IMG/VR virus record: IMGVR_UViG_3300033076_001139
Span: 64,001-128,000 of that record
Length of the DNA: 64,000 nucleotides
Source of the DNA: a virus
Lineage: Duplodnaviria > Caudoviricetes
Reading direction: 5' to 3' (one strand)
Shown here: in pieces, positions 4,066-58,746 of the stretch
Numbering within the stretch: the stretch's first letter is position 1
How the letters are laid out: the number at the start of each line of letters is the position of its first letter
Program-made: the position numbers and the translations under genes
The notes under the pieces: generated by a model
The model's input: the letters and a program-made list of their open reading frames with translations, nothing else
Database searches by the model: none
What the model was told of the DNA's origin: nothing

Positions 4066-4276
4066 GCTGATTATCCGTGGTGTTGATGGTGCGCACAAAA
4101 ACAGTCTTCAGAAGGACATTGAGCAGGAGATCGAGGCCTTCGACGCCGCGTTTACGAAGCTTGGAAACGCGCCGTTGGTTCGATCAGAAAAGGCCTTGAT
4201 CCGGACTTTCCTGGTTGCCCGGCTGACAGGGCGCGTATCTTCTCCCCAAGAGGATTCGAAAACATCCGGTCAATGA
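4064..4276 (+). CDS. Small helical hypothetical protein, antisense to both neighbours
   Basis: GGAGG just before ATG 4064. Protein-like amphipathic sequence EIEAFDAAFTKLGNAPLVRSEKALIRTFL. Confidence 0.45.
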   Translation: MLIIRGVDGAHKNSLQKDIEQEIEAFDAAFTKLGNAPLVRSEKALIRTFLVARLTGRVSSPQEDSKTSGQ

Positions 4277-4646: not shown

Positions 4647-4661
4647 CTGAGCCTCCGCACT

Positions 4662-4689
4662 CTTATGGCTAATAAAGAACAAGTCTTTG
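4662..4689 (-). promoter_or_regulatory. Putative sigma28-like promoter CAAA-N15-AGCCATAAG
   Basis: Same architecture as the sites at 5233 and 58667; ends 15 nt before the start codon. Confidence 0.55.
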
Positions 4690-4718
4690 CGCGCAAGGCG
4701 CAAGACAGCGCCCGAGCC

Positions 4719-5210: not shown

Positions 5211-5232
5211 GAGATACTCCTTTCTCATGTAT

Positions 5233-5260
5233 CTTATGACCGATTTTGCCCTTCCTTTTA
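5233..5260 (-). promoter_or_regulatory. Putative sigma28-like promoter TAAA-N15-GGTCATAAG
   Basis: Spacing matches the FliA consensus TAAA-N15-GCCGATAA; intergenic. Confidence 0.6.
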
Positions 5261-5274
5261 GACTCTGCTATGGT
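5246..5274 (+). promoter_or_regulatory. Putative sigma70-like promoter TTGCCC-N17-TATGGT with extended -10 TGn
   Basis: Ends 8 nt before ATG 5283, which has no SD sequence. Confidence 0.5.
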
Positions 5275-5282
5275 GGGTGCGC

Positions 5283-8200
5283 ATGATCACGTCCCAAGAA
5301 ATCAACGCGATGATCTCCATGCAGCAGCAACAAGCGGGCTACATGGGGGGCGTCCCCATGGCTGTCCCGATGTCTGGGGCGTCACAATACCCGCCGCAGT
5401 TTAATTATGCCCCACGCCCAATGGGTGCCGCGCAGCTAGGACAGGCCGCAGCGGGCGGCCTTATGAATTCTTTTGGACCAACTGCCGGCGGCATGACCAA
5501 CATGGCCATGAACATCGGCATGGCTGCCGGTGTCGGTGGATGGGCAGCCAATAAAATGGGATTTGCGGGTGCAGGAAACGCGCTAGGTTCCTTGGCGGGT
5601 AATCGATTCCTGACAGGAGTGAGTAACCTAAATCCCATGAACGCAGCGTTCAGTGGGGCGTGGGGCGCAGGAGAGGCAGCAGTTGCTAGTGGTGGCTGGG
5701 GAAGTCTCCTTACTGGGGCAGGTGCCCGGTCTATCGCATTAGGCGCAGCCGAGGGAATTTTAGCCAGTCCGGCCGCTATGATTGGTATTGCAGCAGCACC
5801 AATTGCCATAGGGATGCACCGAGGAGCGCAGCAGTACAGCCAGACCGCCTCGATGCTGGGTGCGTACAATCAGTTTGCAAATCCGTTTGCATCGACAGGG
5901 CGTGGGTTCTCCGAGAACCAGATGTCCTCGATTGTCTCGGGAATGCGCGCGTTACAGGCAAACGACCCGTTCTTGTCTATGCGAGACATGCAGCAGGCAA
6001 TGTCCCGTTTTAACGAAATGGGCATGAATCAGGGGGAACGTGACGCAGAGCAGGTGATGAAGAAATTCACCGCCATGACCAAGAGCATGCAGGCCATGTC
6101 CAAGATGATGGGCACGACCATGGATGAGGCGTCTAAGGTATTTGCCCAGATGCGCGGAGTTGGGTTCTACAGCGGCGCAGACGTCATGCAGAACACCCTG
6201 CTGGGCGGTACGATGCGCGGCCAGGGTATCTCAGGGAATACCATGCTTGGGGCGCAGGCCGCAGGCGGCGGAATTTCGCGTGCAGGAGGTCTCGGTACTA
6301 CGCCAGGAGCCAAGTCCGTTGGTGGGGTCATGGCGATGCTCACCGGAGGTAGGGGAGTTGGTGCCCTGACAAATGAAGAGATGATGAACATCACCGGAGC
6401 TGCTACCCCGGATCAGGCTATCGCACAGCTCAGTACCACGATGGCTGGTAGCCTTACGGGGTTCTACACGCAGACGGGAGTTGGGCAGGCAATGCTCGCT
6501 GCCCTCGGGGAGACCAACGCGCGCGGAGAGTTTACAGGTGGGCTAGACAGCGAGGCGATAGAGGGGCTTCGTACCGGCCGTATCGATATCAACAATCTTG
6601 TGTCTAAGGGACGCGGTAAGGTCTCGACTCGTAATGCCGCCCTTTCCTTCAAGACGCGCGGGCAGGACGTGGCTGGTGCCCTGATCTCGGAGGGAGATCC
6701 CACGGCCGCAATTGGTGCAATTATGCAGAGCGTGGCCGGTGACAAGTTCAGGGACATGGACCCCGAGAACCTCGTCACGCTTCTCACCGAACGTATTCAG
6801 GGTCTAGGCCGCAAAGAGGCCGAGGCCATGACGAAGCTCTACCGAGAAGGGGAGAAGATCCGGCGCGAGTCCCAGCAGCAAATACGTGCCGAAATGCAAG
6901 CAGGTATATTCTCTACTGACATCAGGGAGTACCACTCTCTTGAGGGGTACAAACGTAGAGTGCTCGGCGGGCTTTCTGATCGCTTCACCCCTATATTAGA
7001 GGCCGGACAAGCCCTATCTGTGATGGGCGGCCGGATGACAGAGCGGGCTTCGGATGCCATCTTCGGAGTCACACGCGTGCGCACCGGAAATGACGTTGTG
7101 GACGCTAGACTAGAGAGACTGTCCGAGGGCAGGTTTGACGAAAGCGCAACCGGGGCCGTGGACAAGGGAATGGCCGATACCACGCTTAGTGGTTTGCTGC
7201 GGAGAAGGGACTACGTAGGCGCAACCGCAGAATTTAATAAGACAGACTCACGAGTCCGCGCAGGGAAAAACCTCAATGACCTGTTTGGGAGTCCAGACGC
7301 GGCCGGGAGACAGGTAGTTGCCGGGTCTCTGGGAATGAAGCTTATCAATTATAGTTCTGATATCCGCGCCGGTAAGAGTGCTGCGGACATTGTCCGGGGA
7401 ATGCGGCTAGAAGTTCCAGAGGCAGGAGGTATTGACCAGCTGCTCGGCAGTACAGATACGCTTTCTATTGAGGAGTACCTAGCCGGCGGCGCCGATACCC
7501 TTGGGGGTACCTCGGCGGAGCGACGACAAGCACTAGTAGACGAAGCTATGAGCCTTGGGCGCCCAGAGGTGGCCGCTCTTATTGCCGACATGGGAGTAGG
7601 CAACACAAGGTCGCTGGAGCAAATTAAGTCCTCAGGTACGGATATCCTCAATAAATATGGGTACGTAAACTCGTATACCGCTCGTTCCGGCTACGACAAA
7701 TTGATGGAGTCCGAGAGCCTCGGTGCCGCAGGACGCCTGGGCAAGGCAGGCGTAGACCTAAGTTCCTTCTACAAGATGACGCAGGAAGCTTATGGCGGTG
7801 CCGGCGTAACAAACCAGAGTCAGGGTTACGGCCGTCTGTTGGACGCACTCAGGGCCAAGGGCGTTGATGTGGCGGGTATGACAAAGACCCAACTAGACGC
7901 GCTCATGGAGGTAGCACAGGATACCGGTGCTGGACTCGGGGAAAGCCTAACTGCCGCAGACCTAATGTCGCTGGGCGAGGGGGCAAGTGCCGCGCAGTCT
8001 CAGATGGATCTGGCAAATCTGACCGCAATGGCAACCGCAGCGTCAGAAAGTGCGTACGAAGGCATATCAAACGCGGCCGGAGCAGACGAACTGGCGGCCC
8101 TTGCGGGTTCTAGTACGGAGACTGACGTAGCCAAGAACACGTCGGCCCTGCTTGATACGCTAGAGAAGGCTATTGGGTCCGGCGACCTTACGCTGGGTGA

Positions 8201-8612
8201 CATAGGAAAAGAAGGGTCACGCTACGGTGCCTTCGGAAAGACATTAGCCCAGCTTTTACAGACTCGAAAGTCTATAGCCGCTGTCGGAGCTGGGGAGGTA
8301 TCCGATGCGGATAGAAAGGCATTGCTCGGTATGGGGTTCAGCGAGAAGTACATCAGCAGCCTCGGTACCGACATAGATGGCGGGGAACTCGTAAAGCTAC
8401 AAACAGGTGCAGAGCAGCGGAGGCTCGCGGAGCTTACCGGCGGGGGCACAGCGGGAGCATTTACCGACACAACGCAGGCAGAGGCAGTCAAGTACTACGA
8501 CAGCCTTGCAAAGAGCGTCGTTGTTGTAAATGACCAAGTCCTGCGGATGCAGGACCGCGAACAGGCCTACCAAGCGCAGCGCGCAGCCGCACCCCTCAAG
8601 CCGGAGGAATAA
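5283..8612 (+). CDS. Tape-measure-like protein
   Basis: About 1110 aa, Gly/Ala/Met-rich and helical with hydrophobic GxxxG segments; first gene of the tail block. Confidence 0.7.
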   Translation: MITSQEINAMISMQQQQAGYMGGVPMAVPMSGASQYPPQFNYAPRPMGAAQLGQAAAGGLMNSFGPTAGGMTNMAMNIGMAAGVGGWAANKMGFAGAGNALGSLAGNRFLTGVSNLNPMNAAFSGAWGAGEAAVASGGWGSLLTGAGARSIALGAAEGILASPAAMIGIAAAPIAIGMHRGAQQYSQTASMLGAYNQFANPFASTGRGFSENQMSSIVSGMRALQANDPFLSMRDMQQAMSRFNEMGMNQGERDAEQVMKKFTAMTKSMQAMSKMMGTTMDEASKVFAQMRGVGFYSGADVMQNTLLGGTMRGQGISGNTMLGAQAAGGGISRAGGLGTTPGAKSVGGVMAMLTGGRGVGALTNEEMMNITGAATPDQAIAQLSTTMAGSLTGFYTQTGVGQAMLAALGETNARGEFTGGLDSEAIEGLRTGRIDINNLVSKGRGKVSTRNAALSFKTRGQDVAGALISEGDPTAAIGAIMQSVAGDKFRDMDPENLVTLLTERIQGLGRKEAEAMTKLYREGEKIRRESQQQIRAEMQAGIFSTDIREYHSLEGYKRRVLGGLSDRFTPILEAGQALSVMGGRMTERASDAIFGVTRVRTGNDVVDARLERLSEGRFDESATGAVDKGMADTTLSGLLRRRDYVGATAEFNKTDSRVRAGKNLNDLFGSPDAAGRQVVAGSLGMKLINYSSDIRAGKSAADIVRGMRLEVPEAGGIDQLLGSTDTLSIEEYLAGGADTLGGTSAERRQALVDEAMSLGRPEVAALIADMGVGNTRSLEQIKSSGTDILNKYGYVNSYTARSGYDKLMESESLGAAGRLGKAGVDLSSFYKMTQEAYGGAGVTNQSQGYGRLLDALRAKGVDVAGMTKTQLDALMEVAQDTGAGLGESLTAADLMSLGEGASAAQSQMDLANLTAMATAASESAYEGISNAAGADELAALAGSSTETDVAKNTSALLDTLEKAIGSGDLTLGDIGKEGSRYGAFGKTLAQLLQTRKSIAAVGAGEVSDADRKALLGMGFSEKYISSLGTDIDGGELVKLQTGAEQRRLAELTGGGTAGAFTDTTQAEAVKYYDSLAKSVVVVNDQVLRMQDREQAYQAQRAAAPLKPEE

Positions 8613-8615
8613 TCT

Positions 8616-8816
8616 ATGAGGTCCCGCGTAGTTTCTGAGGAGGTCACGAACGTAACGGGTGTACGCGTGACTACCGCCGTAGTTACGTACCCAACGGCAG
8701 AAGACGTACTGGGTGTGTTGTCCAGAGCCGTAGCCCGCGAAAAACAAACAGCGCAGTATGCGTACGTATCCCCCTCAAAAGGCGTACGGGACTCTATATT
8801 TAGATTTTCCGAATAG
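8616..8816 (+). CDS. Small hypothetical protein
   Basis: Fills the gap between two large co-oriented genes; GGAGG upstream. Confidence 0.55.
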   Translation: MRSRVVSEEVTNVTGVRVTTAVVTYPTAEDVLGVLSRAVAREKQTAQYAYVSPSKGVRDSIFRFSE

Positions 8817-8825
8817 GAGGCGTGT

Positions 8826-10541
8826 ATGGCTGAGCCAGTTCCCGCAAGTCCGGCTGCGCCTGCCATGGTAGCTACCTGGCCGGAGGTTCTTCCGGGTAGT
8901 TCCGAGAATCTACCGCACTACGAGGCCGCAGAGCCGGTGCGTCGTCCTGTGCGCGGTATCCAGCTCAAGGGCGAGACCTTTGCGCGCATCTCGTTGCCGG
9001 GTCGGTCACTTTACGATTCTTCGGGCCAGCCCCTTGCAGGCCCGGAGGGCGCACAGCGTACTACTGCGGACGGAAAAACCCCTCCCGCAGATAAGTGGCA
9101 GGGTATGTCACATAAGTACGCCAACTTTCTACTCCAGAGTGTCGCAATTGACATGGAGGAGAAGTTCCAACCTGTTCCCACATTTGGCCTGACTTACGGC
9201 TTCTTCTTTGGGGAGCGACCCCATATCTACTCTTTCAACGCGGTACTGGTAGACAGTGGAGACTTCCGTTGGGTCAGCGACTGGCTTGGAAACTACGAAG
9301 ATAAGCTGCGTGGCACTAAACTGGCAATGGCAAATACGCCCGTTACTGTGGAGTTTGAGGACCACAAAATCGAGGGGTACATTATCCGCTCGGTACTAAA
9401 TAAGGATGCCTCCACACCTCTCTACATGCAGTTATCCTTTAGCCTCTGGGTAATACGCCACGAAACCCCGGAGCACGAGGCAGGAGATACGCGTTTCCCT
9501 TATAGTGCTGGCGGTACGCCGGTAGTTCACCGTCTTCCTTTCAGTACGACTGATGCGGTGCGTAGGGCCAACATTGACCTACTCAAGAAGTCACAGAACC
9601 CGGGATGGCTACGCAAGATCATTAATCAGGTATCCGAGCTAAAGAATAAATACGACAGCGTTGTCCAAGGGGTTGAGAACTTCCTGTACAATCGCAATAT
9701 TGTTCCGGCTAACCAATATGTCAACGCAGCTACAATAGCGGCGGAGCAAGGCACGTTAGCAGCAATTCTGGCAGGACAGAGCTACACTGTCACGTTCAAG
9801 AAGCCGCCTTACTACGCACACGAGCAGGGAGGATTTATCTTCCAGAACCGCGACGAGTACATGCTGGGCGGTTGGATTGACGCCTTAGAATCGTATGGTT
9901 CAGCTGACCCGACGAAACTAAAACTTGCAGACGGTAGGTCTGTAACCGCTGCGGCGCTTGTCGCTGAAGCAGAGGCCGCCTGGGCGGCGCAGGTAGAGAA
10001 GCAGCCGGTAACCCTGAGTTCTGAGTCCCTCCTTGAGAAAATTGGTAGGACGGTGCTTTCCCGTGCCGCCCTCTACGCAACTCAAGTACTGCTTCAAGAG
10101 GACGGAATTGTAGCAATCACGAGTGGTAGCGTAGAAGGGACCATGCTTGGGCAGTCGGACAAGCTTCAGTTCACGAAGGACATACTGCTCCCCTCCCTGC
10201 ACACCCTTGAAACCATCGCAGTAGACGCAGTGGGCGCGCGCACCCTGACAGACCGACTTCGTACGCAGGCGCAGAGCAGGGAACAGCTAGAGCGACAGAA
10301 CGCAGCTTCTCAAGCAGCCCGTATGGCCGCGTCCTCGGAGCTAAGCCGCACGTCCAGACTACAGGCCTTACAGAACGCGGCTAACGCCATCATCGGTACC
10401 ACGACTTCCTCGGCGGTCGCCGACGCCGCGTTACAAGAGCAGCTTACCGCAACACGGGCAGAAGAACGTAGACAGCAGCAGGACGCGGCTTCAGAAAGAG
10501 ACGCGCAGCGGCAGGCCTTGTTACGTGCCTTCGCATCATGA
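8826..10541 (+). CDS. Putative tail tube-initiator/baseplate protein
   Basis: AGGAGG RBS. Beta-rich N-terminal domain (NFLLQSV..EEKFQ..TFG..FFGERP) and coiled-coil C-terminus. Follows the tape measure gene. Confidence 0.5.
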   Translation: MAEPVPASPAAPAMVATWPEVLPGSSENLPHYEAAEPVRRPVRGIQLKGETFARISLPGRSLYDSSGQPLAGPEGAQRTTADGKTPPADKWQGMSHKYANFLLQSVAIDMEEKFQPVPTFGLTYGFFFGERPHIYSFNAVLVDSGDFRWVSDWLGNYEDKLRGTKLAMANTPVTVEFEDHKIEGYIIRSVLNKDASTPLYMQLSFSLWVIRHETPEHEAGDTRFPYSAGGTPVVHRLPFSTTDAVRRANIDLLKKSQNPGWLRKIINQVSELKNKYDSVVQGVENFLYNRNIVPANQYVNAATIAAEQGTLAAILAGQSYTVTFKKPPYYAHEQGGFIFQNRDEYMLGGWIDALESYGSADPTKLKLADGRSVTAAALVAEAEAAWAAQVEKQPVTLSSESLLEKIGRTVLSRAALYATQVLLQEDGIVAITSGSVEGTMLGQSDKLQFTKDILLPSLHTLETIAVDAVGARTLTDRLRTQAQSREQLERQNAASQAARMAASSELSRTSRLQALQNAANAIIGTTTSSAVADAALQEQLTATRAEERRQQQDAASERDAQRQALLRAFAS

Positions 10542-12214
10542 GTTCACGTACCCTCGGCGAAGCACAAGTTCTTGGACTCCGGCTCTTTCTAGAAGGGCTG
10601 GAAGTCCCCGTCATATCAGCGACGGTTGACATCAACGAGGGCGCAGCAGCGGTCGCACAGATCGAGATTGTCGGTCTTGACTCTGCAATGAAGTTCAAGC
10701 CTCGGACTATGGTTCACCTGTTCTTTTTTGACGGCGCAGACTACAAGTACGGACCACAAACCGTAAAGAAAACAACAGACGCTCGCAGAACGGACCCTTC
10801 GGACCCTTTTTCCCCGATGGTGCCGTCTAAGACGGAAACTACTCGCAGAACATTAGACGACCGGTACCGTCTGTTGTTCATGGGTGAGCTGTTCTCATAT
10901 ACCTATCAAAAGGCGGGAAGCGGGGCGAGATCCGTCATCCTGAACTGTATCGACTTCAGCAACTACTGGGACACCTCGTTTATCTTTCAGGTAACCGGAG
11001 AAGAGAGTCTTCTGGACGTCCCGCAGATCCAGCCGTTCATCACCGGATCTGACGCCTTCGCAAGCAATCTTGTGGAGGGAAACGTAGGCCTGCTGATTAC
11101 GCAGCTCAAGGCGCAGACACAACTCTCGCAATCGGTATTGCCGGGGGACGGCAGCGTACAATTCCTTTCCTCCCTAGTCGGCATACTAGAGATGCTCGGA
11201 GGTGTGTCAGTCCTCGATGACTCCAAGCCTCCGGACCCTAAAGACCCGAAAAGCACGTATACGCGTTATAGCGTCCACGGAGGCCTCACCCCGTGGCATA
11301 CGCTATCCGAGCGGCGGGTACGCTTGCTCGACCAAATCGCAACAGACGACGGAAAGACAGCCTCGAATATGTTCGAGCAAGAAAAGTTTGAGCAGTTCCT
11401 AAAGCGCCAGAGTGATTTGACCAGTTCTGTCCTCAGCTTTCGGGATATTCTCAACCTGTTGTTAGGACATATCTACTACGCTACTTTCCCAAACCCCTGC
11501 GGGCGTCTGTTGACCGGAGAGCCGTTTACGCCGAAACCTATGGACGCGGGACCTACAAGTAACTGGGCCGCACCTGCCTATGTGTTTCCGACCAACCTCT
11601 CTGTAGACCCTAGGTACTTGGCTCCAGGCCTTACAACCGCAGATGCGTTGCAAGCATCTAGGGAACTATATGCTACGTCTACCCCGGCTCAGGTAGCCCA
11701 AGAGCTATCCAAGAATTTCACGTTTGACGAGCTTACAAACTCCGGCAAGCACAAAAACCTTGTCGCACAAAACCGAGTAGAGGCACTACAGGTTTACAAC
11801 TTCCTGCGGGATCTTTGCCTCTACATCCTAGAGCCGCTCCTTGAGAAATTCCCCAAACTGTCTGTAACCTCAGGATTTAGGGGACCCGAACTTAACGCCG
11901 CAGTCGGGGGGTCCGACGGCTCTCAGCACAAACTAGGGCAGGCGGCAGACCTAGACTTCGGTAGCGCGCAGGCCAACTGGGAAGCGTACAAGTATCTAGC
12001 ATTCGCGCCCCATAGTATCCCTTTTGGGCAGGTTATTTTCGAGAAGCAAGGGGGGCGTCCTTGGGTGCACGTGAGCCTCGGACAGCCGTGGTTTCACCTG
12101 TCTAATGACGTGCGGAGAAGCGTACCTAACCCCAGCACAGGCAAACTCGACTGCCCGCCCGCTCCCCCAAGCTGGAACGCACAAACTCCCCTCCCGCCCG
12201 AGTATGCAGGATGA
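10538..12214 (+). CDS. Putative baseplate hub protein, N-terminal part, with C-terminal peptidase M15 domain
   Basis: LSKNFTFDEL...SGFR..ELNAAVGG...SQH..GQAAD...WVHVS are M15A Zn-peptidase motifs. The hub call rests on position. Confidence 0.75.
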   Translation: MSSRTLGEAQVLGLRLFLEGLEVPVISATVDINEGAAAVAQIEIVGLDSAMKFKPRTMVHLFFFDGADYKYGPQTVKKTTDARRTDPSDPFSPMVPSKTETTRRTLDDRYRLLFMGELFSYTYQKAGSGARSVILNCIDFSNYWDTSFIFQVTGEESLLDVPQIQPFITGSDAFASNLVEGNVGLLITQLKAQTQLSQSVLPGDGSVQFLSSLVGILEMLGGVSVLDDSKPPDPKDPKSTYTRYSVHGGLTPWHTLSERRVRLLDQIATDDGKTASNMFEQEKFEQFLKRQSDLTSSVLSFRDILNLLLGHIYYATFPNPCGRLLTGEPFTPKPMDAGPTSNWAAPAYVFPTNLSVDPRYLAPGLTTADALQASRELYATSTPAQVAQELSKNFTFDELTNSGKHKNLVAQNRVEALQVYNFLRDLCLYILEPLLEKFPKLSVTSGFRGPELNAAVGGSDGSQHKLGQAADLDFGSAQANWEAYKYLAFAPHSIPFGQVIFEKQGGRPWVHVSLGQPWFHLSNDVRRSVPNPSTGKLDCPPAPPSWNAQTPLPPEYAG

Positions 12215-13980
12215 CCACGCGCTCTCGTCTCATCACTACGGTATTTCGACCTGACGTGTGGTTTGTAATGCCACCGGCATGCAACGTTGTGTTCCCGGAG
12301 GAGTGCACGAATGTGTCGTATTCACGTCAGATGATGCGTGAAACGACTCGCCTAGAGCTACAGACATTCACGGGCATCCTTAAGACCTCAGGATCGCAGG
12401 TAGACGAAGAACTCATTCAGCAGTACTACTTTGCCCCTGCTCTTGTAGGCGCGGACGGCAGACCCACCCTGCCGGATAAGTTGGGCAAGCCCCAAGAGGA
12501 CGAGAAGGAGGCTGCCCCGCTTACGAACATCATGTACCTCCATGAGAAGTTCACGGGCATCATCCCGAAGATCGAGAGAATCTCGGATACTGCCTTCTAC
12601 GCAGCACTGGAGGCAAACGAGGCACAGGGTGCTACCTCTGTGACACGCGAATCGGAAGTAGCGACAATTGAGCAGTACGCCCAGCGTGTGGCACTGTTTA
12701 ACTTCCTACGCAACCGATACATGGCCAGGCAGGCGAGTGTGTCAGGTAGATTTATGCCACGCCTGGTTGCTGGGTTTCCGGCACTAGTTGTAAATCGACC
12801 AAAAGAAACGGATACCGACGACCCCACGCACTTTGTGGGAATGATCACGAACATTTCGCACACTTTGAACCAAGACGGCGGTACTACTTCTTTTGCGTTG
12901 TCCTACGCGCGCCCTCACACGATTGCAAGCGAGGAGGAGTCATTTCTTCAGTTCCTGCAATCTCTAGAGGAGAACGTACCAGCGATTGATAAATTGATTA
13001 CCTACGGAACCTCTGCGGAGAACACTGCGGACATTGTGCGGATTAATAAGCAACTTCAGGCACTTTCTGCCAAGCTTATAGCAGAAGGAAAAGACCCGAT
13101 TGCTGAGCTATACATCCCGCTATCTCAGGGAGACTATTTTGGGCCTGCGGGGTACGACCCTACGTTGATTCAGGCCAACCTACATCCTACGGCATTCAGC
13201 GCGACTATCGTACTTATGCGCGGAGCCGGCGCAGACTTAGACACCCCCGCTACCGTAGAGGCCCTGTTTGCGGAAGAGCCCTCGGATGCGATGCTTCAAT
13301 TCGCCTTTAGGGCGTACCTTCAGACGGACGATACTGGGCCTGAACCAGAAACCCCAGAGGCGTACGCTAAGCGAAATAACCTGCCTTCGGTTCAGTCTCC
13401 GGTACCTTGGCTTAAGTCTGCGGACGGGAATACCTACCCAATTGTTGTAGCCGTGTACATCAAGCAAGACGCCAGTACGGTAAAGAAGTCGTTTGAGGAG
13501 ATCATGACTCCTCCATGGTTTTCAGACACGTACAAGAACTCTGCTATTGGAAACTACTACCGCAGGCTGCTGGGCTGTGACTCAATGAGTGGACAATTTG
13601 GCGGCGACAGTAGCTCCGTAGAAGCCGCCGCTATCGCTGCCGTTGAGGCATACTCTGGGCTGGATAACGTCAAGTCCAACGCCGGAGACCCGCAGTTTGT
13701 CTACCTCAACACCAAACGAGAGATTCCAACCCAAGCGCAGGTACTAGAGTTTCACCGTTTTGCCTCGGCAGACGCTGGAAAGAGTCCGCTCTACGGGCTG
13801 GATGAGTCGGGCGGTGGTGTCACCGAGGGCAATGAAGGCCATATCGCCCGGAACCGTGTATCTACCGCAGATACGCTAGAACTTGTCGGCGCGGGCTCTC
13901 TAGATCCTCGACAAGAGCGGTATACTGCCGTAAAGTCGTACCACGATCAGCTACTAGGCCGACGGGCCTTTAGAGGTTAA
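12211..13980 (+). CDS. Putative baseplate hub protein, C-terminal part
   Basis: ATGA-coupled to the previous gene. SVSGRFMPRLVAGFP...VGMITNISHTL..GGTTSFAL resembles the gp27/gpD hub C-terminal barrel. Confidence 0.55.
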   Translation: MTTRSRLITTVFRPDVWFVMPPACNVVFPEECTNVSYSRQMMRETTRLELQTFTGILKTSGSQVDEELIQQYYFAPALVGADGRPTLPDKLGKPQEDEKEAAPLTNIMYLHEKFTGIIPKIERISDTAFYAALEANEAQGATSVTRESEVATIEQYAQRVALFNFLRNRYMARQASVSGRFMPRLVAGFPALVVNRPKETDTDDPTHFVGMITNISHTLNQDGGTTSFALSYARPHTIASEEESFLQFLQSLEENVPAIDKLITYGTSAENTADIVRINKQLQALSAKLIAEGKDPIAELYIPLSQGDYFGPAGYDPTLIQANLHPTAFSATIVLMRGAGADLDTPATVEALFAEEPSDAMLQFAFRAYLQTDDTGPEPETPEAYAKRNNLPSVQSPVPWLKSADGNTYPIVVAVYIKQDASTVKKSFEEIMTPPWFSDTYKNSAIGNYYRRLLGCDSMSGQFGGDSSSVEAAAIAAVEAYSGLDNVKSNAGDPQFVYLNTKREIPTQAQVLEFHRFASADAGKSPLYGLDESGGGVTEGNEGHIARNRVSTADTLELVGAGSLDPRQERYTAVKSYHDQLLGRRAFRG

Positions 13981-13982
13981 AA

Positions 13983-15242
13983 ATGGCCGAGTTTCCTCAG
14001 ATCCAGGCACCGTCCTTCAAGCTCTCTGATGAGAGCAAGGAGCGGCTGCGTAAGGTAGACACTGTGCGGCCCTACGCACACCGTGCTGCTATCTTTGGCC
14101 TGCCGGCGATGGCTTCGGCAAACTACATGCTTCCGCAGATGAAGCGCCGTGGGCTAGCTGTGGGGGCTATTGGGGCTGCGGGCGCTGGCCTGGGGCTGAT
14201 GGATCGCAAGATCGAGCAGCTTGCGGAAGAGCACGAGGAGCTGCGCCCTACTCTTAAGAACTACTCAAAAGGTACCCCCTCTTCTGGAATATCTATGTCG
14301 GCTAAAACTGCTTCCGTGTCTGATCGTGTCCGTCGTAATCAGGACGAGCTGGCGGCTGCTTTCCCGATGACAATGGCTCAACGGGTAGAGCTTCAGAAAG
14401 AGGCCCTCTTGCTGGACCCTAAGACAACGGCGAAAGCTACCGGACAGGCCTTGTCCTTTATGCGCGGTGCAAAGCCTACGCTGATTGGCGCAGGCGTGGG
14501 AGCCGTAGGGGGTGCCGCAGCTGATGGCGAGAACCGGGGCCGCGGAGCACTGACTGGCGCGCTCGTCGGCGGTGCTCTTGGCGGGGGAGCAACTGCCCTA
14601 ACGCGCGCGTACACCCCTGAGCTTCGGGCGGGCATGACTGCCGCTAACCGAGCTGCAATTAGGGGCGGTAAGCCTGTAGGCGCAGCCGACTACACCAAGA
14701 CCTTCAAAGAGGGCTTCAAGAACTACAAGCCTCCCGTTGCGCCTGAAGGCACCGCGAGCACAGCAGCGGTACAAAAACAGACAAGACGCAGTAGAAAGGC
14801 GACTTCTCCGGTTCAACAGCCGGTAACCCAGCCCGCAGTGCAGTCGACTCCTACCCAGACAGCGCAAGAACTGGGGGATATGCGGACGCGTGAGAAAACC
14901 CAATCTGCGCCTGCCTCCTCACTGCGGCATCGTCTACACCAAATGACCTCAAAGGAGGCAGGCATCAACACGATGCATGACGCACACCGCGCAATTGGGG
15001 GACGGCCTCCATACGCCCTCCTCACGATGGGCGGGGAAACCTCGAATGATGCGGTCATAAATCAAATGCTGCGCGCCCTTTTCGCGAACACTGACGCGAT
15101 GCGTAAGGCTACCGAGGATCAAGTCCTCGCAGCCTTCCCGCTATCGGCCCCGTATTCGTACGGGCGTCATCGCGCGATTGGCCGCACAGCGGACGACATT
15201 AAAGCAGAGATTGCGCTGGCTTATACACCTACGCAGAGGTAA
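13983..15242 (+). CDS. Glycine-zipper protein with three internal K-x-A motifs, putative internal virion protein
   Basis: GLAVGAIGAAGAGLG and GAGVGAVGGAAA..GALTGALVGGALGGGA; KTA, KEA, KEA. Confidence 0.6.
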   Translation: MAEFPQIQAPSFKLSDESKERLRKVDTVRPYAHRAAIFGLPAMASANYMLPQMKRRGLAVGAIGAAGAGLGLMDRKIEQLAEEHEELRPTLKNYSKGTPSSGISMSAKTASVSDRVRRNQDELAAAFPMTMAQRVELQKEALLLDPKTTAKATGQALSFMRGAKPTLIGAGVGAVGGAAADGENRGRGALTGALVGGALGGGATALTRAYTPELRAGMTAANRAAIRGGKPVGAADYTKTFKEGFKNYKPPVAPEGTASTAAVQKQTRRSRKATSPVQQPVTQPAVQSTPTQTAQELGDMRTREKTQSAPASSLRHRLHQMTSKEAGINTMHDAHRAIGGRPPYALLTMGGETSNDAVINQMLRALFANTDAMRKATEDQVLAAFPLSAPYSYGRHRAIGRTADDIKAEIALAYTPTQR

Positions 15243-15244
15243 GC

Positions 15245-16018
15245 GTGTCACTCCGCGACGCACTCGAGCAGATGCTCGACAAAGCAGCGGCGGCAGGTCC
15301 TGAACGGGCCGGTCGCCGACAGAAGGAACTTGAGCTTTGGAAGACGTGGAAGGACTCCAACCACGATCCAGAGCACCTGGATCCTTTGCTGACTTCGTTG
15401 CAGCCGTTGATGACGCAGCACGTGAATCGGTACGCAGGGAACGTACCCATCTCACGCCCCGCATTAGAGAATGAGGTCACCCGGCTGACCGTCCGTGCGC
15501 TCAAGAGCTACAAGCCCGACCGGGGTGCCCAGCTCAGTACGTTCGTGACAGGCCAGCTCAAGGGCATCAACCGCTTCGTGACGCAGCACCAAAACGTGTC
15601 GCGCATCACGGAGGAACGGTCGCAGAAGATCGGTCGTTACCAGCGCGCGCACACCGCGCTGAACGAGTCCCTTGGTCGCCCGCCCACGGCACAGGAAGTT
15701 GCCGACGAAATGAAGGTCTCCGTGCGTATGGTCAATCGCCTCTCGCAAGAGATGCGGTCTGACCTTCTGGGCTCCGGCTCAGAGCACGACCCATTCTTGG
15801 ACGAAGAGCCCAAATCCCGCGAAGTGCTGCGGCTGATGTACCCGTACGCCTTCTCACCTGATGAGCAGAAGGTGTTTGAATACCTTCTCGGCCTTAACGG
15901 CAAGGAGAAGGAACTGAAGACGGGCAAGATTGCTCGTGCGTTGGGCTGGTCGGACTCCAAGGTCAGCCAGACTCGCGCTGCAATTGCGAACAAGGTTAAA
16001 CCGTACCTCAATGGGTAA
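15245..16018 (+). CDS. RNA polymerase sigma factor, sigma70 family, FliA/WhiG/SigB-like
   Basis: Region 2 ALKSYKPDRGAQLSTF, region 3 LGRPPTAQEVADEM, region 4 FSPDEQKVF..KIARALGWSDSKVSQ. Confidence 0.9.
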   Translation: MSLRDALEQMLDKAAAAGPERAGRRQKELELWKTWKDSNHDPEHLDPLLTSLQPLMTQHVNRYAGNVPISRPALENEVTRLTVRALKSYKPDRGAQLSTFVTGQLKGINRFVTQHQNVSRITEERSQKIGRYQRAHTALNESLGRPPTAQEVADEMKVSVRMVNRLSQEMRSDLLGSGSEHDPFLDEEPKSREVLRLMYPYAFSPDEQKVFEYLLGLNGKEKELKTGKIARALGWSDSKVSQTRAAIANKVKPYLNG

Positions 16019-16235
16019 GTGGAAAAACGGTGCGCCGCTTGATGCGAACGGTTCTACGACCGGGCGCGAAGGGCTGCGCACCGCGATTCGCACCTACATC
16101 GATGATGCACGAAAGGTGTTGGAGAAGGACAGGGATTACCTTGTGGAATATTCCAAACGACTTTCAAACCGTGACATCCTTGAAAAGGACATGTCGCAAC
16201 TGACGGCCGACGAATTGGACAAGATACTGTCCTGA
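16011..16235 (+). CDS. Small hypothetical protein
   Basis: ATG overlaps the sigma gene 3' end; followed by a terminator. Confidence 0.6.
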   Translation: MGKWKNGAPLDANGSTTGREGLRTAIRTYIDDARKVLEKDRDYLVEYSKRLSNRDILEKDMSQLTADELDKILS

Positions 16236-16244
16236 CGAAGAGCG

Positions 16245-16272
16245 AGGGCAGCTAGGTGCTGCCTTCCTTTTA
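16245..16272 (+). terminator. Intrinsic terminator
   Basis: GAGGGCAGC-taggt-GCTGCCTTC followed by CTTTT. Confidence 0.65.
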
Positions 16273-16314
16273 GCTGGGTGTGCTTGTATCCTGCGAGGTG
16301 CGCAGGAGGCGCAC

Positions 16315-16539
16315 ATGTCAATCGAGTTCAAGTGTGACAACATAGCGTTCTCAGCGTTCTTGTTGTCGCGTGGGGTGCCGACTAGTTCGCACTTCCAACG
16401 CGGCCGCAAGATCGTCTGGGTTTTCAACATCAATCAGGAGGATCTAGCTCAGGCCCAGGCCGACTGGCCGCAGTCCGCGGAATGTCGGTTCTTCAACAGC
16501 TACCTCACCCTAAAATCTCATCTTCGCGAAAGGGCTTGA
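16315..16539 (+). CDS. Small conserved-type phage protein, DUF5659-like
   Basis: AGGAGG RBS; pattern DNIAFSAFLLSRG...IVWVF. Confidence 0.6.
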   Translation: MSIEFKCDNIAFSAFLLSRGVPTSSHFQRGRKIVWVFNINQEDLAQAQADWPQSAECRFFNSYLTLKSHLRERA

Positions 16540-16563
16540 CGCTAGATGATCCGCGTGTATAGT
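16536..16563 (+). promoter_or_regulatory. sigma70-like promoter TTGACG-N16-TATAGT
   Basis: 5/6 match in both hexamers, about 110 nt upstream of the fibre gene. Confidence 0.7.
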
Positions 16564-16673
16564 CATCTCACTACAGCGCCCAAGGCGCCCCGCCAGAAGT
16601 AGCGGTGAATAGATCGCACCAATGAAGTGCGCGACGGGAATCTCGTCACCATTCACCATAAAGGACTACTATC

Positions 16674-18815: not shown

Positions 18816-18842
18816 TCTATAGTGGACGAACCCGAGTTGGGT

Positions 18843-18887
18843 GAGTAAGATGTCCGGGGAAGGCGACTTCCCCGGACATTCTTACTT
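18843..18887 (+). terminator. Long GNRA-capped hairpin after the fibre gene
   Basis: AGTAAGA.TGTCCGGGGAAG-gcga-CTTCCCCGGACA.TTCTTACT. Confidence 0.7.
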
Positions 18888-18902
18888 AGGAGCACGGGTT
18901 CA

Positions 18903-23980: not shown

Positions 23981-24622
23981 GTGACTGACTTCCGTGCCAT
24001 CTCCTACCAAGGACTGACGTTCCCAACCTCGTACCGGCAAAGTGCCGACGCGGAGTTTTTGGATATCCGTGGCACCGGTTTTGAGGATGTCGCCAACGTC
24101 GTGATCAATGGGTACCGTTCCCCCAACTTCATCGTAGAGTCCTCACGGCGCATCTTCGCGGAAGTGCCGAGCGCTGTACGGGGAGAGCCCGTAAGCGACA
24201 TTCAGGTCCTACTTCTGTCTGCGGCGGCCGGGCAGGAGAGCGCGGTAGTTTTGGATGTAGGCGGAGGCAACGGCTACGTGTCCGGCACCGCCAAGCTGCT
24301 TCAGACAGTGATCAAGGTACTGCTGACTACGCCGGGATCGGACCTCTTCAACCCGCAGTTGGGCGGTGGTTTGCGTTCTGTACTCGGATCAAACTTCAAT
24401 GACGTAAATTCCGCAGAGTCGCGTGTAAGGCAGGCCATCTCCAATACGGAAAGCCAGCTCCAAGCCCTACATGCCGGGATGCCTCGCCTTCCACTTGCAG
24501 AGAAACTACGGAGCATTTCGGTGTTGTCCGTAAACATCTCTATTGACGATAGTGCCCTCTACGCACGAATTGCGGTGACGTCTCAGGACGGGAATCGCGT
24601 ATCCTCTGGAGTCACGCTGTAA
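23981..24622 (+). CDS. Baseplate wedge gp25/GPW-like protein with N-terminal IPT/TIG domain
   Basis: IRGTGFE..VVING (IPT); KLLQTVIKVLLTTPGSDLFNPQLGGGL (gp25-like); precedes baseplate J. Confidence 0.75.
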   Translation: MTDFRAISYQGLTFPTSYRQSADAEFLDIRGTGFEDVANVVINGYRSPNFIVESSRRIFAEVPSAVRGEPVSDIQVLLLSAAAGQESAVVLDVGGGNGYVSGTAKLLQTVIKVLLTTPGSDLFNPQLGGGLRSVLGSNFNDVNSAESRVRQAISNTESQLQALHAGMPRLPLAEKLRSISVLSVNISIDDSALYARIAVTSQDGNRVSSGVTL

Positions 24623-27600
24623 TGGCTACACAAGCTGAACGTGTCCAGGAGCTGCTGATTCAGCGGCTTGAGACGTACTACTCGGGTCGCACGATTGCCC
24701 CCGGCACCTCGCTATACGACACAGTCGTCACTCCTGTCGCCAACTATCTGGGCGTTGATGCAACGGATACCGACATTGCCGAGTTCCTGAAGACGCGTCT
24801 ACGCCAGGAGTACCCCTCTGTATCTGCCGAAGATGGCGATGCTATTGTCGACCTATTGATCAACCCGCTTAGCCTGCTCCTTGAAGCACTGAAGCGGGAG
24901 ACTGCGCTCATCAAACTTGGCCAGTCGGTGCAGTCCGCTGTTTCGATGCGTGAGTCAGATGCAGACGCACTTGCGGCCAACTTCTTTGTCAGCCGCCGCG
25001 TCGGCGGCAAGGCATACGGCGTTGTGCGGGTGTACTACGCCAACCCCACCTCCGTGTTCGTCGGGGTAAATGCCCGGTGGACTACGGCAGACGGCCTTGT
25101 ATTTCAGCCTGTCACGTCACAGACGTTTCCCGCAGAGCAGCTGCTCCTACAACGAGCAGGAAACTACTACTATATTGACGTGTCTCTTGTCAGTGCCGAT
25201 ACCGGCGCGCAGTACAACATCGGGCCGAACCAGCTTACGAGTGTCACTGGCCTTTCTGGGTATGTGAAGTTCACAAACCTAGCCGCGTTTGCCGGGGCCT
25301 CAGATCGAGAAACAAACGTAGAGCTGCTTACGCGTGTCCGTTCCGCGTTGACGGAGCGCTCTCTAAATACTCGGCGCGGAATTGTGTCTCGTATTCAGGG
25401 GCAGTTCCCCTCGGTGCGTGCCGTGGAGGTCGTTGGGTACGGCGACCCGGAGATGCGGCGTGACGTGGTTACTGGAACTTCCGAGGGGCACGCGGTAGCC
25501 TCCGGCACCTGCTTTATCGTAGGTCAGTTCTGCCTGATGCTTTCGCAGTTTGAGGACCGAGGACGGGACGGCACAACAACAATAAAGGTAGGGGATACCG
25601 TTGCGCTGAACTACTGGAACCTCCTCTACTCGCTGCCGCAGGCGGCACGCAATGAGGAGTTCAAGATCGCGGATATCGTGTTTGACACCCGCGATACTTT
25701 ACCGGATATCCCGTCGATTCTGTTGTTCCGGCTTGATTCCGCCCCGTCTCCGGAAAGCAGCACGCTCGGCATGTTGCCGGGTATGCTGCCGGGTGTTTTC
25801 TGCGTAGTTCGCTCGAACACCAAGATCACGATCTCAGGAATCCCTGGAGGAATCCAGGAGCCACAGACCCCTGCCGGCGAGCTGGAGATCTTCGACAATG
25901 AAGTGCATATTGGCGGGCATTACGACGTCTGGCTTCGCCCGAGCATAGATCAGTCTGCGACCGCTACGTTCGGGCAGATGCTGTCCAATTCAAGCGTCGC
26001 GGAGGGACGCCAGCTCTCGACCTTTGGCGGCGCAGACACCGGCAGAAACGTAGTATCTATTCCCTACTCTGTGTCTTTCAGGGACGGGTTTAGCAGCTCG
26101 TCTACCATCTTCACCCCCGGCACCGCCGTAGTTGGGTCGCGTAGCGGGGCAACCGCTACAGTTGCTACGGCGTCAATTATCCGTGCGACCGGCTCTGTTA
26201 CGCTCACGGCAGTTACCGGTGCGTTTGAGGTAGGTGAGGAGATTACCAACGTTGCGGCTACGGCGGGAGGGACGATCACCTACGTATCCTCTGACCTACA
26301 GACGCTGGGCGCACGCGCGGGCATGACCATCGTCCTTCTCACCGGAGCAGACGTTGGGTCGTACCGGATTCTAGATGTCGTAGGCGAGTTGGTCTACCTA
26401 GATACGGACCTGACAGAGTCAGAAACGCAGATACACTTCCGCGTCCTATCCGAGATTACGGAGGACCTGTTCGCACCCAAGGTTGTGCTTGTGCCATTCG
26501 CGGACGCGCTTGGGGATGACCTATCTACCGTAGTAGGCTCTCAGCGTCTTCGCCTGACAACTGATCTCCAGCAGTACGGCGTCGTTCCGGGAGACTCTAT
26601 CGAGATCTTTGGCGGCAACGATGCCGGTGTCTACGCGATTCAGTCGTTCGATACGGTACTCGGCGGTACTGCGCCAATTGTTAGCAGTGCTATGAGCGCG
26701 TCTAACTCGAAGCTGGCCTACCGGGTTTACCGCGCAGGAACTGGCGTTCAGCGCCCCCTTGTGCGCATCAAGCCAGAGGGCGTGCGCCTCCTTGATTCAG
26801 CAGGCAAGGACGCCAACATTGTTGTGCCGTACGCCCTGCCTCTTGGGGCGTATGCTCTTGGAGATTTCTCTGGAGCAAAGGAAGGACTCACTGGCCGCAA
26901 CGGTTTCGTGCTACCCGACCCGGGCACTTCATGGACCCCTACGGCAGATCTTACAGCCAGCCGGGATGAGTTCTCAGAAGCACTGTCCTGTTACTCCGAC
27001 GAATGTATTCCGTGCGACGGGTACATCGCTGTCGTGACGCTAATGGCAAATGGGCAGTTCTACCTGAACTCCAACATGCCGACAGCGGTAAAAGAGTTCT
27101 TCAGGAACATGCAGAACTGGCTACTCAACGTCGTAGATCAGTTCAATATTGGGCCAGATGCCAAGGCCTTTGTGCACGGCCTCACGCCCATCACGTTTGG
27201 CTCCCCTGTCGACGCAACAGAGTTCACAAGTACCGACGGAACCCTTCGCGCGGGCGAGACGCTCACAGTCGGATCTGTGAGCGCAACAATCTCCGATATT
27301 GAGCAGGAACTCGTGGTTGCATCCACGGCGGGGTTCAAGGACGGAGAGACGGTTACGCAGGGGAGTATGACGGGCTCTATTCGAGTCACGTCACCTACGA
27401 CCCTGTCTGTCTCCTCAATCACCGGCCCGGCGGCAGATGCGTTCCGAGTTGGTACGCCCGTTACCGGGGGAGCGACAGGGACAACCCAAACTCTAACGGG
27501 TGTTCGCGGTCGCTTTGTCGTTGCGGGGATGACCGGGGGTTCTATTGCTAGCGGCGACACTGTCAGCGCCACCGCCACCGGAGTGCAGGCCACAATTACG

Positions 27601-44591: not shown

Positions 44592-45097
44592 TACGGCCTC
44601 GCTAGGAACGCAGCAGGGATGCCGAAGTCGGCGGGATTTACTTCCTCAAGGTAGAGAACCACTCGCGGATTTGTAGGGTCCATTGCTTTCACTAGGGTCA
44701 GTTCCATAGTGAGGGAGTCATCAAGACCCAACGCATCCGCAAGACAGTCTTCTATGAGCTTACGCCGGTTTCCGGCGTCCATCTTCTTATAGACGGTTTT
44801 CGCCCCTCTTTTACCGTCGCGCCCAATTTTTAGCCATCCCTCATTTACCAACGTCTCGAAGTAGAAGACGATGGTGAGCCGATAGGCCGCACAGGGGGTA
44901 TGCCCCTGGACGAATTTCTGAATGGGCAGGAAGTAATTCTTATGGGCGTGCGCCCGGAAGTTCGAGCGAAACTGCTCCGCTTCCTTGCTGTAGACCTCCC
45001 CGCCCTGCCGCCGATGCACCCGAATGTGGTTGTCACTCGGCGGCAAGTTGGGAAAGTGGATTTCAAGGTTACGGGCGGGCAAAGGGATTTCGGCCAT
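44591..45097 (-). CDS. rusA: RusA-like Holliday junction resolvase
   Basis: PPS.NH...; KMDAGNRRKLIED.L...G.DDS. Confidence 0.75.
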   Translation of the reverse strand: MAEIPLPARNLEIHFPNLPPSDNHIRVHRRQGGEVYSKEAEQFRSNFRAHAHKNYFLPIQKFVQGHTPCAAYRLTIVFYFETLVNEGWLKIGRDGKRGAKTVYKKMDAGNRRKLIEDCLADALGLDDSLTMELTLVKAMDPTNPRVVLYLEEVNPADFGIPAAFLARP

Positions 45098-58642: not shown

Positions 58643-58666
58643 TAGCTACCTCCGGTGTAGCAACTA

Positions 58667-58694
58667 CTTATGCCCGCGTTGTCGTTATACTTCG
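58667..58694 (-). promoter_or_regulatory. Putative sigma28-like promoter CGAA-N15-GGGCATAAG
   Basis: In the divergent intergenic region heading the 15.5-kb replication operon. Confidence 0.55.
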
Positions 58695-58746
58695 TACCCT
58701 TCTTCTTCGGGGGATAGTATGATAGGCACGCCTAGGAGAATCCGCC

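What the first reader, a model, noticed from the sequence alone, without database searches (positions are those of the whole stretch)
15245..16018. Possible virion-packaged sigma factor and inverted transcription programme
Seen: a FliA/WhiG-like sigma gene sits inside the virion morphogenesis block, 2 nt after a putative internal virion protein gene, and starts with a K-x-A leader variant (MSLRDALEQMLDKAA). The sigma28-like promoters I found precede - strand accessory and replication genes. Structural genes have sigma70-like promoters (5246-5274, 16536-16563). Known: phage sigma factors (T4 gp55, SPO1 gp28/gp34) are made after infection and drive middle or late genes, whereas N4 injects its own RNAP for early genes and uses host sigma70 late. 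Inference: this sigma is made late, packaged, injected, and redirects host core RNAP to early promoters.
Basis: partly seen in the sequence, partly recalled or inferred. Interest (0 to 1): 0.88.

Follow-up and report, generated by a model that had tools for sequence, protein, structure and literature searches.

The report
Phage sigma factor, probably virion-carried
This gene is a real sigma factor of an uncultured 151-kb phage that most likely works with the phage's own one-piece RNA polymerase, not the host's, and probably travels in the virus particle to switch on the phage's early genes.

Summary
The ORF at 15245-16018 (+) is a real but divergent sigma-70-family gene. It is the only sigma found in this 151-kb phage contig. 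It lies at the end of an 11-kb tail/baseplate-hub operon, and that position is conserved in 27 related contigs and in the cultured Salmonella phage Arash.

About 16 two-part promoters (CTAAA, then 19 nt, then ATAAG) have the geometry of sigma-28 promoters. All lie on the minus strand, ahead of accessory and replication genes.

The sigma and this polymerase co-occur in 12 of 13 near-complete relatives. In Arash virion proteomics, the sigma orthologue has the highest unique-peptide density of the proteins I computed, close to the polymerase and the capsid protein.

My reading is therefore: late synthesis, packaging and delivery are supported indirectly, but the partner is the phage polymerase, not host core. 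Only one sigma-70-like "late" promoter (16536-16563) is convincing, and it is conserved. The N-terminal "leader" is a real recurrent motif, but cleavage or targeting is untested.

This scan reached the same reading earlier on other contigs of this phage clade. No experiment exists for this phage.

The parts
15245..16018 (+). Sigma-70-family gene (257 aa, GTG start). N-terminal helix about residues 3-37, sigma2 about 40-120, sigma3 about 123-177, disordered 3.2-type linker 174-189, sigma4 about 190-256.
15245..15292 (+). N-terminal 16 residues carrying a degenerate copy (..MLDKAA) of the clade's N-terminal motif hydrophobic-x-x-x-L-[ED]-K-[ILV]-[AS].
5277..16235 (+). Tightly packed tail/baseplate-hub operon of the 7 ORFs listed (close relatives have one more small gene in the 8613-8825 gap). 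Products: 1111 aa, 571 aa, 558 aa M15 peptidase, 589 aa, 419 aa, sigma, 74 aa. Most junctions overlap or are 2 nt apart.
10538..12214 (+). 558-aa protein with a C-terminal M15 peptidase domain (tail lysin type). Weak homologue of Arash Gp8, annotated 'cell wall hydrolase, structural protein'.
12211..13980 (+). 589-aa conserved neighbour of the sigma gene. There is only a weak lead to Mu P / YqbQ-type baseplate hub proteins.
13983..15242 (+). 419-aa glycine-zipper, low-complexity protein immediately upstream of sigma. Fast-evolving; function not established.
16011..16235 (+). 74-aa helical ORF whose ATG overlaps the sigma stop. A small coupled ORF (66-85 aa) holds this position in about 15 relatives. 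Candidate sigma partner or regulator (inference).
16244..16266 (+). Intrinsic terminator closing the sigma operon. The stem is kept by compensatory changes in a relative.
16536..16563 (+). Sigma-70-like promoter (TTGACG, 16 nt, TATAGT) ahead of the 713-aa repeat-rich, possibly fibrous, gene. Both hexamers are conserved while the spacer has diverged.
5229..5270 (-). Early-type two-part promoter (CTAAA, 19 nt, ATAAG) heading the minus-strand gene 4719-5228.
4658..4699 (-). Weaker early-type promoter (GCAAAG ... GCCATAAG) heading the minus-strand gene 4152-4703.
58663..58704 (-). Early-type -10 element (GGCATAAG) at the head of the minus-strand replication module 44.3-58.6 kb.
44782..44823 (-). 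Variant site (TAAAAG ... TCTATAAG) scoring 26.5 bits with the promoter matrix.
60143..60892 (+). It carries the canonical N-terminal leader (..AFGSELEKIA..).
23981..30942 (+). gp25-like baseplate wedge gene (213 aa) and a 2106-aa Baseplate_J-like gene. They mark the block as tail/baseplate.

Best explanation
The gene encodes the promoter-specificity subunit of the phage's own bacterial-type RNA polymerase. That polymerase is a single 2066-aa beta-beta' chain, encoded 51 nt beyond the window's end, just downstream of the gene taken to be the portal.

Proposed mechanism:
1. The sigma is made with the tail/baseplate proteins from one long operon (inferred).
2. It is packed into the particle together with the polymerase (inferred from proteomics of a distant cultured relative).
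3. It enters the next cell with the DNA (inferred).
4. It directs the phage polymerase to minus-strand promoters of the form CTAAA, 19 nt, ATAAG, which head the accessory and replication genes (inferred).
5. Structural genes are then read by another route. At least one uses a conserved host-type sigma-70 promoter.

Shown here: the protein's identity, the gene order, the promoter class and its strand bias, and the sigma-polymerase co-occurrence. Inferred: the pairing, the promoter assignment, the timing, and packaging or injection.
For: Identity.

Partner:
- The contig holds one sigma and one RNA polymerase. The polymerase has beta and beta' domains in one ORF, and its NADFDGD motif is invariant.
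- 21 of 27 IMG/VR records with the sigma also carry the polymerase, including 4 of 4 that are at least 90% complete.
- 16 of 19 long records chosen by the polymerase carry the sigma, including 8 of 9 that are at least 90% complete.

Promoters:
- There are 17 matrix hits, 16 on the minus strand, against 0-2 in shuffles.
- The TAAA-to-ATAA spacing is 19 nt in 8 of the 15 CATAA[GT] sites with any upstream TAAA. This equals the P. aeruginosa sigma-28 fliC promoter, (-36)TCTAAAG(-30) and (-15)GCCGATAA(-8) (PMC12784957).
- The same -10 core, GG[TC]ATAAG, is strand-specific in Arash and in a complete relative.

Late synthesis:
- The sigma gene is coupled to the upstream gene by a 2-nt gap. The operon is closed by a conserved terminator and has no early-type site on its strand.
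- The gene order is conserved in 27 loci and in Arash.

Packaging (Arash virion mass spectrometry), in unique peptides per 100 aa:
- Gp10 sigma: 24 unique peptides, 10.3 per 100 aa
- Polymerase Gp206: 8.4; polymerase Gp216: 6.6
- Capsid protein: 9.8
- Carry-over enzymes (ribonucleotide reductase, RNA ligase, dNMP kinase): 0.8-2.5
Against: - There is no direct data for this phage.
- Arash is distant (32% identity). Its particles were purified on a sucrose gradient only, and 116 proteins were called 'virion', including obvious carry-over.
- Arash sigma lacks the N-terminal leader, so the leader cannot be required for packaging there.
- The contig is estimated at 81% complete, so a second factor could be missing. 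Two relatives have a weak second sigma-like match.
- A conserved sigma-70-like promoter would be available to host polymerase from time zero, so timing is not settled by sequence.
Confidence: 0.5

Rival explanations
1. The sigma is not packaged. It and the phage polymerase are made after infection, for example by host polymerase reading the plus-strand operons. They then transcribe the minus-strand CATAAG genes as a middle class.
For: A conserved host-type promoter exists on the plus strand. The Arash proteome is permissive (116 proteins) and its authors themselves raise carry-over as a possibility. There are no packaging data for this phage.
Against: Replication genes would then be expressed after tail and head genes. 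The sigma sits last in an 11-kb structural operon with no promoter of its own. The Arash sigma and polymerase have peptide densities like capsid protein, 4- to 10-fold above carry-over enzymes. Sigma-70-like sites are at chance level in the genome.
Confidence: 0.25
2. One reading: the sigma is packaged and injected, but it binds host core RNA polymerase and redirects it to the early promoters.
For: The protein keeps region 2 to region 4 similarity to bacterial sigmas. The promoter geometry equals that of bacterial sigma-28. Phage sigmas that use host core are well known (T4 gp55, SPO1 gp28 and gp34; general knowledge).
Against: The phage carries its own intact polymerase, which would otherwise lack any specificity factor. 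The two genes are almost always together. The family spans relatives from Salmonella, Vibrio and diverse metagenomes, whose host cores differ.
Confidence: 0.1
3. The sigma is an ordinary late-gene factor for the plus-strand structural genes. The CATAAG promoters are read by host holoenzyme, either sigma-70 as extended -10 promoters or host sigma-28.
For: The gene lies among late genes. In Arash the -10 element reads TGGTATAAG, which resembles an extended -10 (TGnTATAAT).
Against: I found no shared motif upstream of the plus-strand operons. The last base of the hexamer is almost always G (a few sites have T), where sigma-70 requires T. The upstream element is CTAAA, not TTGACA. The extended -10 bases differ from host sigma-28 GCCG. 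The motif follows the phage clade across very different hosts.
Confidence: 0.08

Closest known systems
Salmonella phage Arash Gp10 (sigma) with Gp206 and Gp216 (RNA polymerase); PMC10585845
   Same: The sigma is an orthologue (32% identity, E 7e-22). It occupies the same position downstream of the cell-wall-hydrolase structural gene. The polymerase lies next to the portal. A minus-strand early arm has a G-N-[TC]ATAAG -10 element.
   Different: In Arash the polymerase is split into two genes by an inserted cassette, and its sigma has no N-terminal extension. Most other proteins are not detectably similar. The paper only lists the proteins in a virion proteome and gives no mechanism.
Bacterial sigma-28 (FliA / SigD / WhiG, group 3 sigma factors)
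   Same: Similar size and a sigma2-sigma3-sigma4 architecture without region 1.1. The best NCBIfam model and the top structural hit are of this group. The promoter has the same -35 core (CTAAA) and the same 19-nt distance to ATAA.
   Different: It scores 40 bits against a 190-bit family cut-off. The extended -10 bases differ. It is phage-encoded and paired with a phage polymerase. No FlgM-type partner has been identified.
Virion RNA polymerases of phages N4, phiKZ/AR9 and crAss-like phages
   Same: The logic of a late-made, particle-delivered polymerase that reads phage-specific early promoters. In N4, host sigma-70 polymerase reads late genes (general knowledge; PMC7598289 listed).
   Different: Those enzymes are single-subunit T7-like (N4) or sigma-less multisubunit or two-barrel enzymes. 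Iyer et al. 2021 state that jumbo phages with their own multisubunit polymerase have no sigma, and that jumbo phages with sigmas have no polymerase (PMC7824862). Here a sigma-70-family factor accompanies a bacterial-type beta-beta' chain.
T4 gp55, SPO1 gp28/gp34 (phage sigma factors)
   Same: Phage-encoded sigma-70-family proteins that change promoter choice.
   Different: They are made after infection, bind host core, and drive middle or late genes (general knowledge). This one is encoded with structural genes, and its candidate promoters head early-type genes.

Membership tests
Sigma-70 family | Sigma2 domain (core binding, -10 recognition) | tested here: met
   The family profile aligns from about residue 52 to regions 2.1-2.4 of RpoS/SigA chains. 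NF005809 covers residues 26-208. The model is confident over residues 40-120. Pfam Sigma70_r2 alone gave no hit.
Sigma-70 family | Sigma3 and sigma4 helix-turn-helix domains | tested here: met
   Pfam Sigma70_r3 is above its cut-off (30.4 against 25.3 bits). The r4 region is covered by the PDB profile alignment to residue 258 and by the model's helices 190-256.
Sigma-70 family | Binds RNA polymerase core and directs promoter-specific initiation | not testable with these tools
There is only co-occurrence with the phage polymerase.
FliA/WhiG (sigma-28) subfamily | Score above the curated TIGR02479 / NF005809 cut-offs | tested here: not met
   39.6 bits against 189.6, and 40.6 against 326. All 26 family members hit the model, but only weakly.
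FliA/WhiG (sigma-28) subfamily | Promoter of the form TAAA, N15, GCCGATAA | tested here: inconclusive
   The -35 core and the 19-nt geometry match, but the extended -10 reads C[TG]G[TC]C rather than GCCG. The assignment of these promoters to this sigma is an inference.
Virion-delivered transcription machinery (N4 / phiKZ type) | Protein present in purified virions | not testable with these tools
   Known only for the distant orthologue Arash Gp10: 24 unique peptides, 100% coverage, sucrose gradient.
Virion-delivered transcription machinery (N4 / phiKZ type) | Gene co-transcribed with late or structural genes | tested here: met
   The operon structure, the terminator and the conserved gene order fit. 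Late timing itself is inferred.
Virion-delivered transcription machinery (N4 / phiKZ type) | Phage-specific promoters on early genes, independent of new protein synthesis | tested here: inconclusive
   The promoter class and its strand and gene bias are shown. Independence from protein synthesis cannot be tested here.
T4-type capsid-targeting / propeptide leader | Short N-terminal peptide shared by unrelated proteins of one phage | tested here: met
   The core motif has 9 six-frame hits in the genome, and 7-8 of them lie 10-15 residues after a start codon. The same holds in a complete relative. This sigma's own copy is degenerate, while orthologues carry RLEK[IL]A.
T4-type capsid-targeting / propeptide leader | Cleavage by a prohead protease and delivery into the head | not testable with these tools
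   No prohead protease was recognised among the head-module genes. No peptide-level proteomics is available.

The most novel reading that the evidence does not exclude
The particle delivers a complete bacterial-type holoenzyme: a single-chain beta-beta' polymerase plus a sigma-70-family factor. The sigma, like at least six unrelated late proteins, is recruited through a short N-terminal peptide (hydrophobic-x-x-E-L-E-K-[IL]-A) on a flexible linker, which acts as a packaging or ejection signal. A small protein coupled to the sigma gene keeps the sigma silent late in infection.
Probability: 0.25. Interest if true: 0.8.

Novelty: new variant of a known kind. Interest (0 to 1): 0.6.

Why it matters
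Particle-delivered RNA polymerases are known, and phage sigma factors are known. A phage lineage that carries a bacterial-type core enzyme together with its own sigma-70-family factor, and apparently packages both, has only been listed in one virion proteome and never studied.

The lineage is large. At least 512 IMG/VR contigs carry the polymerase, and 1812 clusters (at 50% identity) match the sigma. If the reading holds, it gives a minimal two-protein bacterial-type holoenzyme with a simple, portable promoter. It would also be a new example of host-independent early transcription, and a test case for how non-structural proteins are addressed to the particle.

Tried and rejected
- **Megablast** of 10 kb against phage records: no match.
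- **PHROG and Pfam scans** of most structural genes: nothing. The portal, capsid protein and any prohead protease stay unidentified by sequence.
- **AlphaFold model of the 589-aa neighbour:** mean pLDDT 50, too poor to search with. Only a weak Atlas lead to baseplate hub proteins remains.
- **Rosetta-stone idea:** I tested whether the N-terminal extensions of longer sigma homologues equal the upstream glycine-zipper gene. BLASTP gave E 0.26, so I rejected it.
- **Shared late promoter on plus-strand operons:** none found by shared k-mers or TATAGT-type words. A TATAGT at 18818 is not conserved.
- **The 5246-5274 site:** could not be footprinted, because the one relative contig covering it has no DNA on file.
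- **GNYATAAG alone:** not enriched in the window, 10 matches against 8 expected. Only the two-part intergenic sites count.
- **Literature searches:** no mechanistic study of this clade found.

Full report
**What is there.** The window is bases 64001-128000 of a 151,105-bp phage contig, estimated at 81% complete. The ORF at 15245-16018 (+) encodes 257 aa from a GTG start. The GTG lies 2 nt after the TAA stop of the upstream 419-aa gene, behind a GAGG ribosome-binding site. The start is conserved in two relatives at 86% protein identity.

**Identity of the protein.**
- It hits Pfam Sigma70_r3 (E 4e-7, above the cut-off) and PHROG 351 'RNA polymerase sigma factor' (E 3e-14).
- A profile of 26 homologues matches solved RpoS and SigA chains across regions 2 to 4 at E about 1e-10. 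It matches WhiG at 3e-9 and Aquifex FliA at 1e-4.
- The AlphaFold model (pLDDT 85) shows three helical domains joined by a disordered 3.2-type linker. Its best Foldseek hits are sigma factors, with B. subtilis SigD first.
- NCBIfam ranks FliA/WhiG models first for all 26 members, but at about 40 bits against cut-offs of 190-326.
- It is therefore a true sigma-70-family protein of group-3 size, FliA-like but outside the curated FliA/WhiG family.
- The family is large: 1812 clusters at 50% identity with E up to 1e-3.

**Where it sits.** Genes 5277-16235 form one tightly packed plus-strand unit. Its products are 1111 aa, 571 aa, a 558-aa M15 peptidase protein, 589 aa, a 419-aa glycine-zipper protein, the sigma, and a 74-aa ORF whose ATG overlaps the sigma stop.
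- An intrinsic terminator closes the unit at 16244-16266. Its stem is kept by compensatory changes in a relative.
- Downstream lie a gp25-like wedge gene and a 2106-aa Baseplate_J-like gene.
- The order 1111 – 571 – M15 – 589 – (variable) – sigma – ... – wedge recurs in 27 IMG/VR loci, down to 32% sigma identity. It also recurs in Salmonella phage Arash (gp4 ... gp8 hydrolase, gp9, gp10 sigma).
- So 'inside the virion block' is right, and more precisely it is the tail/baseplate-hub module.
- The upstream 419-aa gene is fast-evolving and has no support as an 'internal virion protein'.

**The promoters.** CATAA[GT] occurs 53 times in the genome. Most of the intergenic copies are on the minus strand and share an upstream CTAAA.
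- The distance from TAAA to ATAA is 19 nt in 8 of the 15 such sites that have any upstream TAAA.
- A matrix built from nine sites finds 17 hits, 16 on the minus strand, against 0-2 in shuffled genomes. The consensus is GCCTAAAA, about 13 nt, TCC[TG]G[TC]CATAAG.
- This equals the geometry of the P. aeruginosa sigma-28 fliC promoter, (-36)TCTAAAG(-30) and (-15)GCCGATAA(-8) (PMC12784957). The bases just upstream of ATAA differ.
They head minus-strand accessory genes and the replication module (DNA polymerase, primase, helicases, ligase).
- Arash and a complete 197-kb relative have the same strand-specific -10 core, GG[TC]ATAAG.
- No such site lies on the plus strand upstream of the sigma.

A 2066-aa ORF starts 51 nt past the window's end.
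- It joins beta (Rpb2_6, E 6e-61) and beta' (Rpb1_1, Rpb1_2, Rpb1_5) in one chain, and its NADFDGD motif is invariant.
- It is the only RNA polymerase in the contig, and the sigma is the only sigma.
- Of 27 viral records found through the sigma, 21 carry this polymerase, including all 4 that are at least 90% complete. The 6 that lack it are fragments (19-65% complete).
- Of 19 long records found through the polymerase, 16 carry the sigma, including 8 of 9 that are at least 90% complete.
- At least 512 viral contigs encode the polymerase.
- The natural partner of this sigma is therefore the phage enzyme, not host core. Direct modelling of the pair was not available.

**Is it packaged?** Nothing can show this for an uncultured phage. 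The only evidence is the virion proteome of Arash (PMC10585845).
- The Arash sigma orthologue Gp10 gave 24 unique peptides and 100% coverage. The polymerase Gp206 was the most detected protein.
- Using gene lengths from the record, unique peptides per 100 aa are:

| Protein | Unique peptides per 100 aa |
|---|---|
| Sigma (Gp10) | 10.3 |
| Capsid protein | 9.8 |
| Polymerase Gp206 | 8.4 |
| Adjacent helicase | 8.1 |
| Polymerase Gp216 | 6.6 |
| Ribonucleotide reductase, RNA ligase, dNMP kinase | 0.8-2.5 |

- The last row lists enzymes that are evidently carry-over.
- Caveats: the particles were purified on a sucrose gradient only, 116 proteins were called structural, and the authors themselves raise carry-over as a possibility. 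Arash is also distant: few of its proteins match this phage.

**The leader.** A core motif, [ED][LIMF][EDKQ]K[LIVTAM][AS], occurs only 9 times in all six frames of the genome. Seven or eight of these lie 10-15 residues after a start codon.
- The proteins carrying it are unrelated, and most lie in plus-strand structural blocks. One sits beside the presumed portal gene (60143-60892).
- A complete relative shows the same pattern.
- This sigma has a degenerate copy (MLDKAA). Many orthologues have RLEK[IL]A or VLEKIS at the same place, followed by linkers of very different length.
- A strict form of the motif is present in the first 30 residues of 24 of 191 homologues, against about 1% expected.
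- Distant orthologues, including Arash Gp10, lack the extension.
- The motif is therefore real and modular. Its role as a targeting or cleavage signal is untested, and no prohead protease was recognised.

**Late promoters.** The site at 16536-16563 (TTGACG, 16 nt, TATAGT) is the only plus-strand sigma-70-like match of 10 of 12 or better in the genome.
- Its hexamers are invariant in two relatives while the spacer is unalignable. This is the signature of a working promoter.
- It drives a 713-aa repeat-rich, possibly fibrous, gene that also has its own terminator.
- Sigma-70-like sites are no more frequent than chance, and the 5246-5274 site failed the scanner. I found no shared motif for the other structural operons.
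- The 'inverted programme' is thus plausible and resembles N4, but it rests on one site.

Literature in the held library has no study of this system. A jumbo-phage survey states that phages with their own multisubunit polymerase lack sigmas, and the reverse (PMC7824862).

Earlier follow-ups of this scan reached the same reading on other contigs of the clade and on this genome's promoters. I re-derived the promoter set, the polymerase, the co-occurrence and the Arash numbers independently.

Noticed in passing
window 16564-16673: The roughly 110-nt leader between the sigma-70-like promoter and the 713-aa gene is almost invariant in two relatives (86% sigma identity). It is more conserved than the flanking coding sequence and may be a structured 5' UTR.
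   Followed up: partly
window 16011-16235: A 74-aa helical ORF overlaps the sigma stop. A 66-85-aa ORF in the same coupled position, with a shared pattern, occurs in about 15 relatives. It could be a sigma partner or an anti-sigma factor.
   Followed up: partly
window 16674-18815 and 18816-18902: The 713-aa gene carries internal repeats (..A.AL.KIYDAV..) and varies in length among relatives (578-713 aa). It is a self-contained unit with its own promoter and a hairpin terminator. The terminator's sequence differs in each relative, but its structure is kept.
   Followed up: partly
window 16267-16275 and many minus-strand intergenic sites in the left arm: Terminator hairpins are followed by a recurring CCTTTTAGC tail. 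The same TTTTAGC word often sits just upstream of the next early promoter.
   Followed up: no
P0171, P0182 (sigma homologues): Some family members are fused to other domains: sigma plus KilA-N (728 aa) and sigma plus inorganic pyrophosphatase (442 aa). Others carry 100-230-aa proline- or glycine-rich N-terminal extensions.
   Followed up: partly
related records G020, G022, G026, G027, G024; loci L053, L056, L072, L077, L118: In more distant relatives the polymerase is split into 2-4 genes, and one copy has an in-frame TAG. In five contigs the match spans 7.2-8.8 kb instead of 6.2 kb, which suggests insertions (inteins or introns) in the gene.
   Followed up: no
related records G040 (118731-119273) and G041 (10962-11237): Two complete relatives have a second, weak sigma-like match (E 1e-8 to 4e-10). 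A second factor may therefore exist in parts of the clade. None was found in this contig.
   Followed up: no
L001 8676-8683 (Arash, plus strand): One GGTATAAG early-type -10 element lies on the plus strand, between the hydrolase gene gp8 and gp9, which is just upstream of the sigma gene gp10. It may be chance or an internal promoter that feeds the sigma gene.
   Followed up: no
window 63039-63623 (-), with a promoter just past the window's end at 64025: A minus-strand early-type cassette, with its own CATAAG promoter, is inserted between the presumed portal gene and the polymerase gene. Arash has a comparable minus-strand cassette, but there it lies inside its split polymerase gene (between gp206 and gp216).
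   Followed up: no
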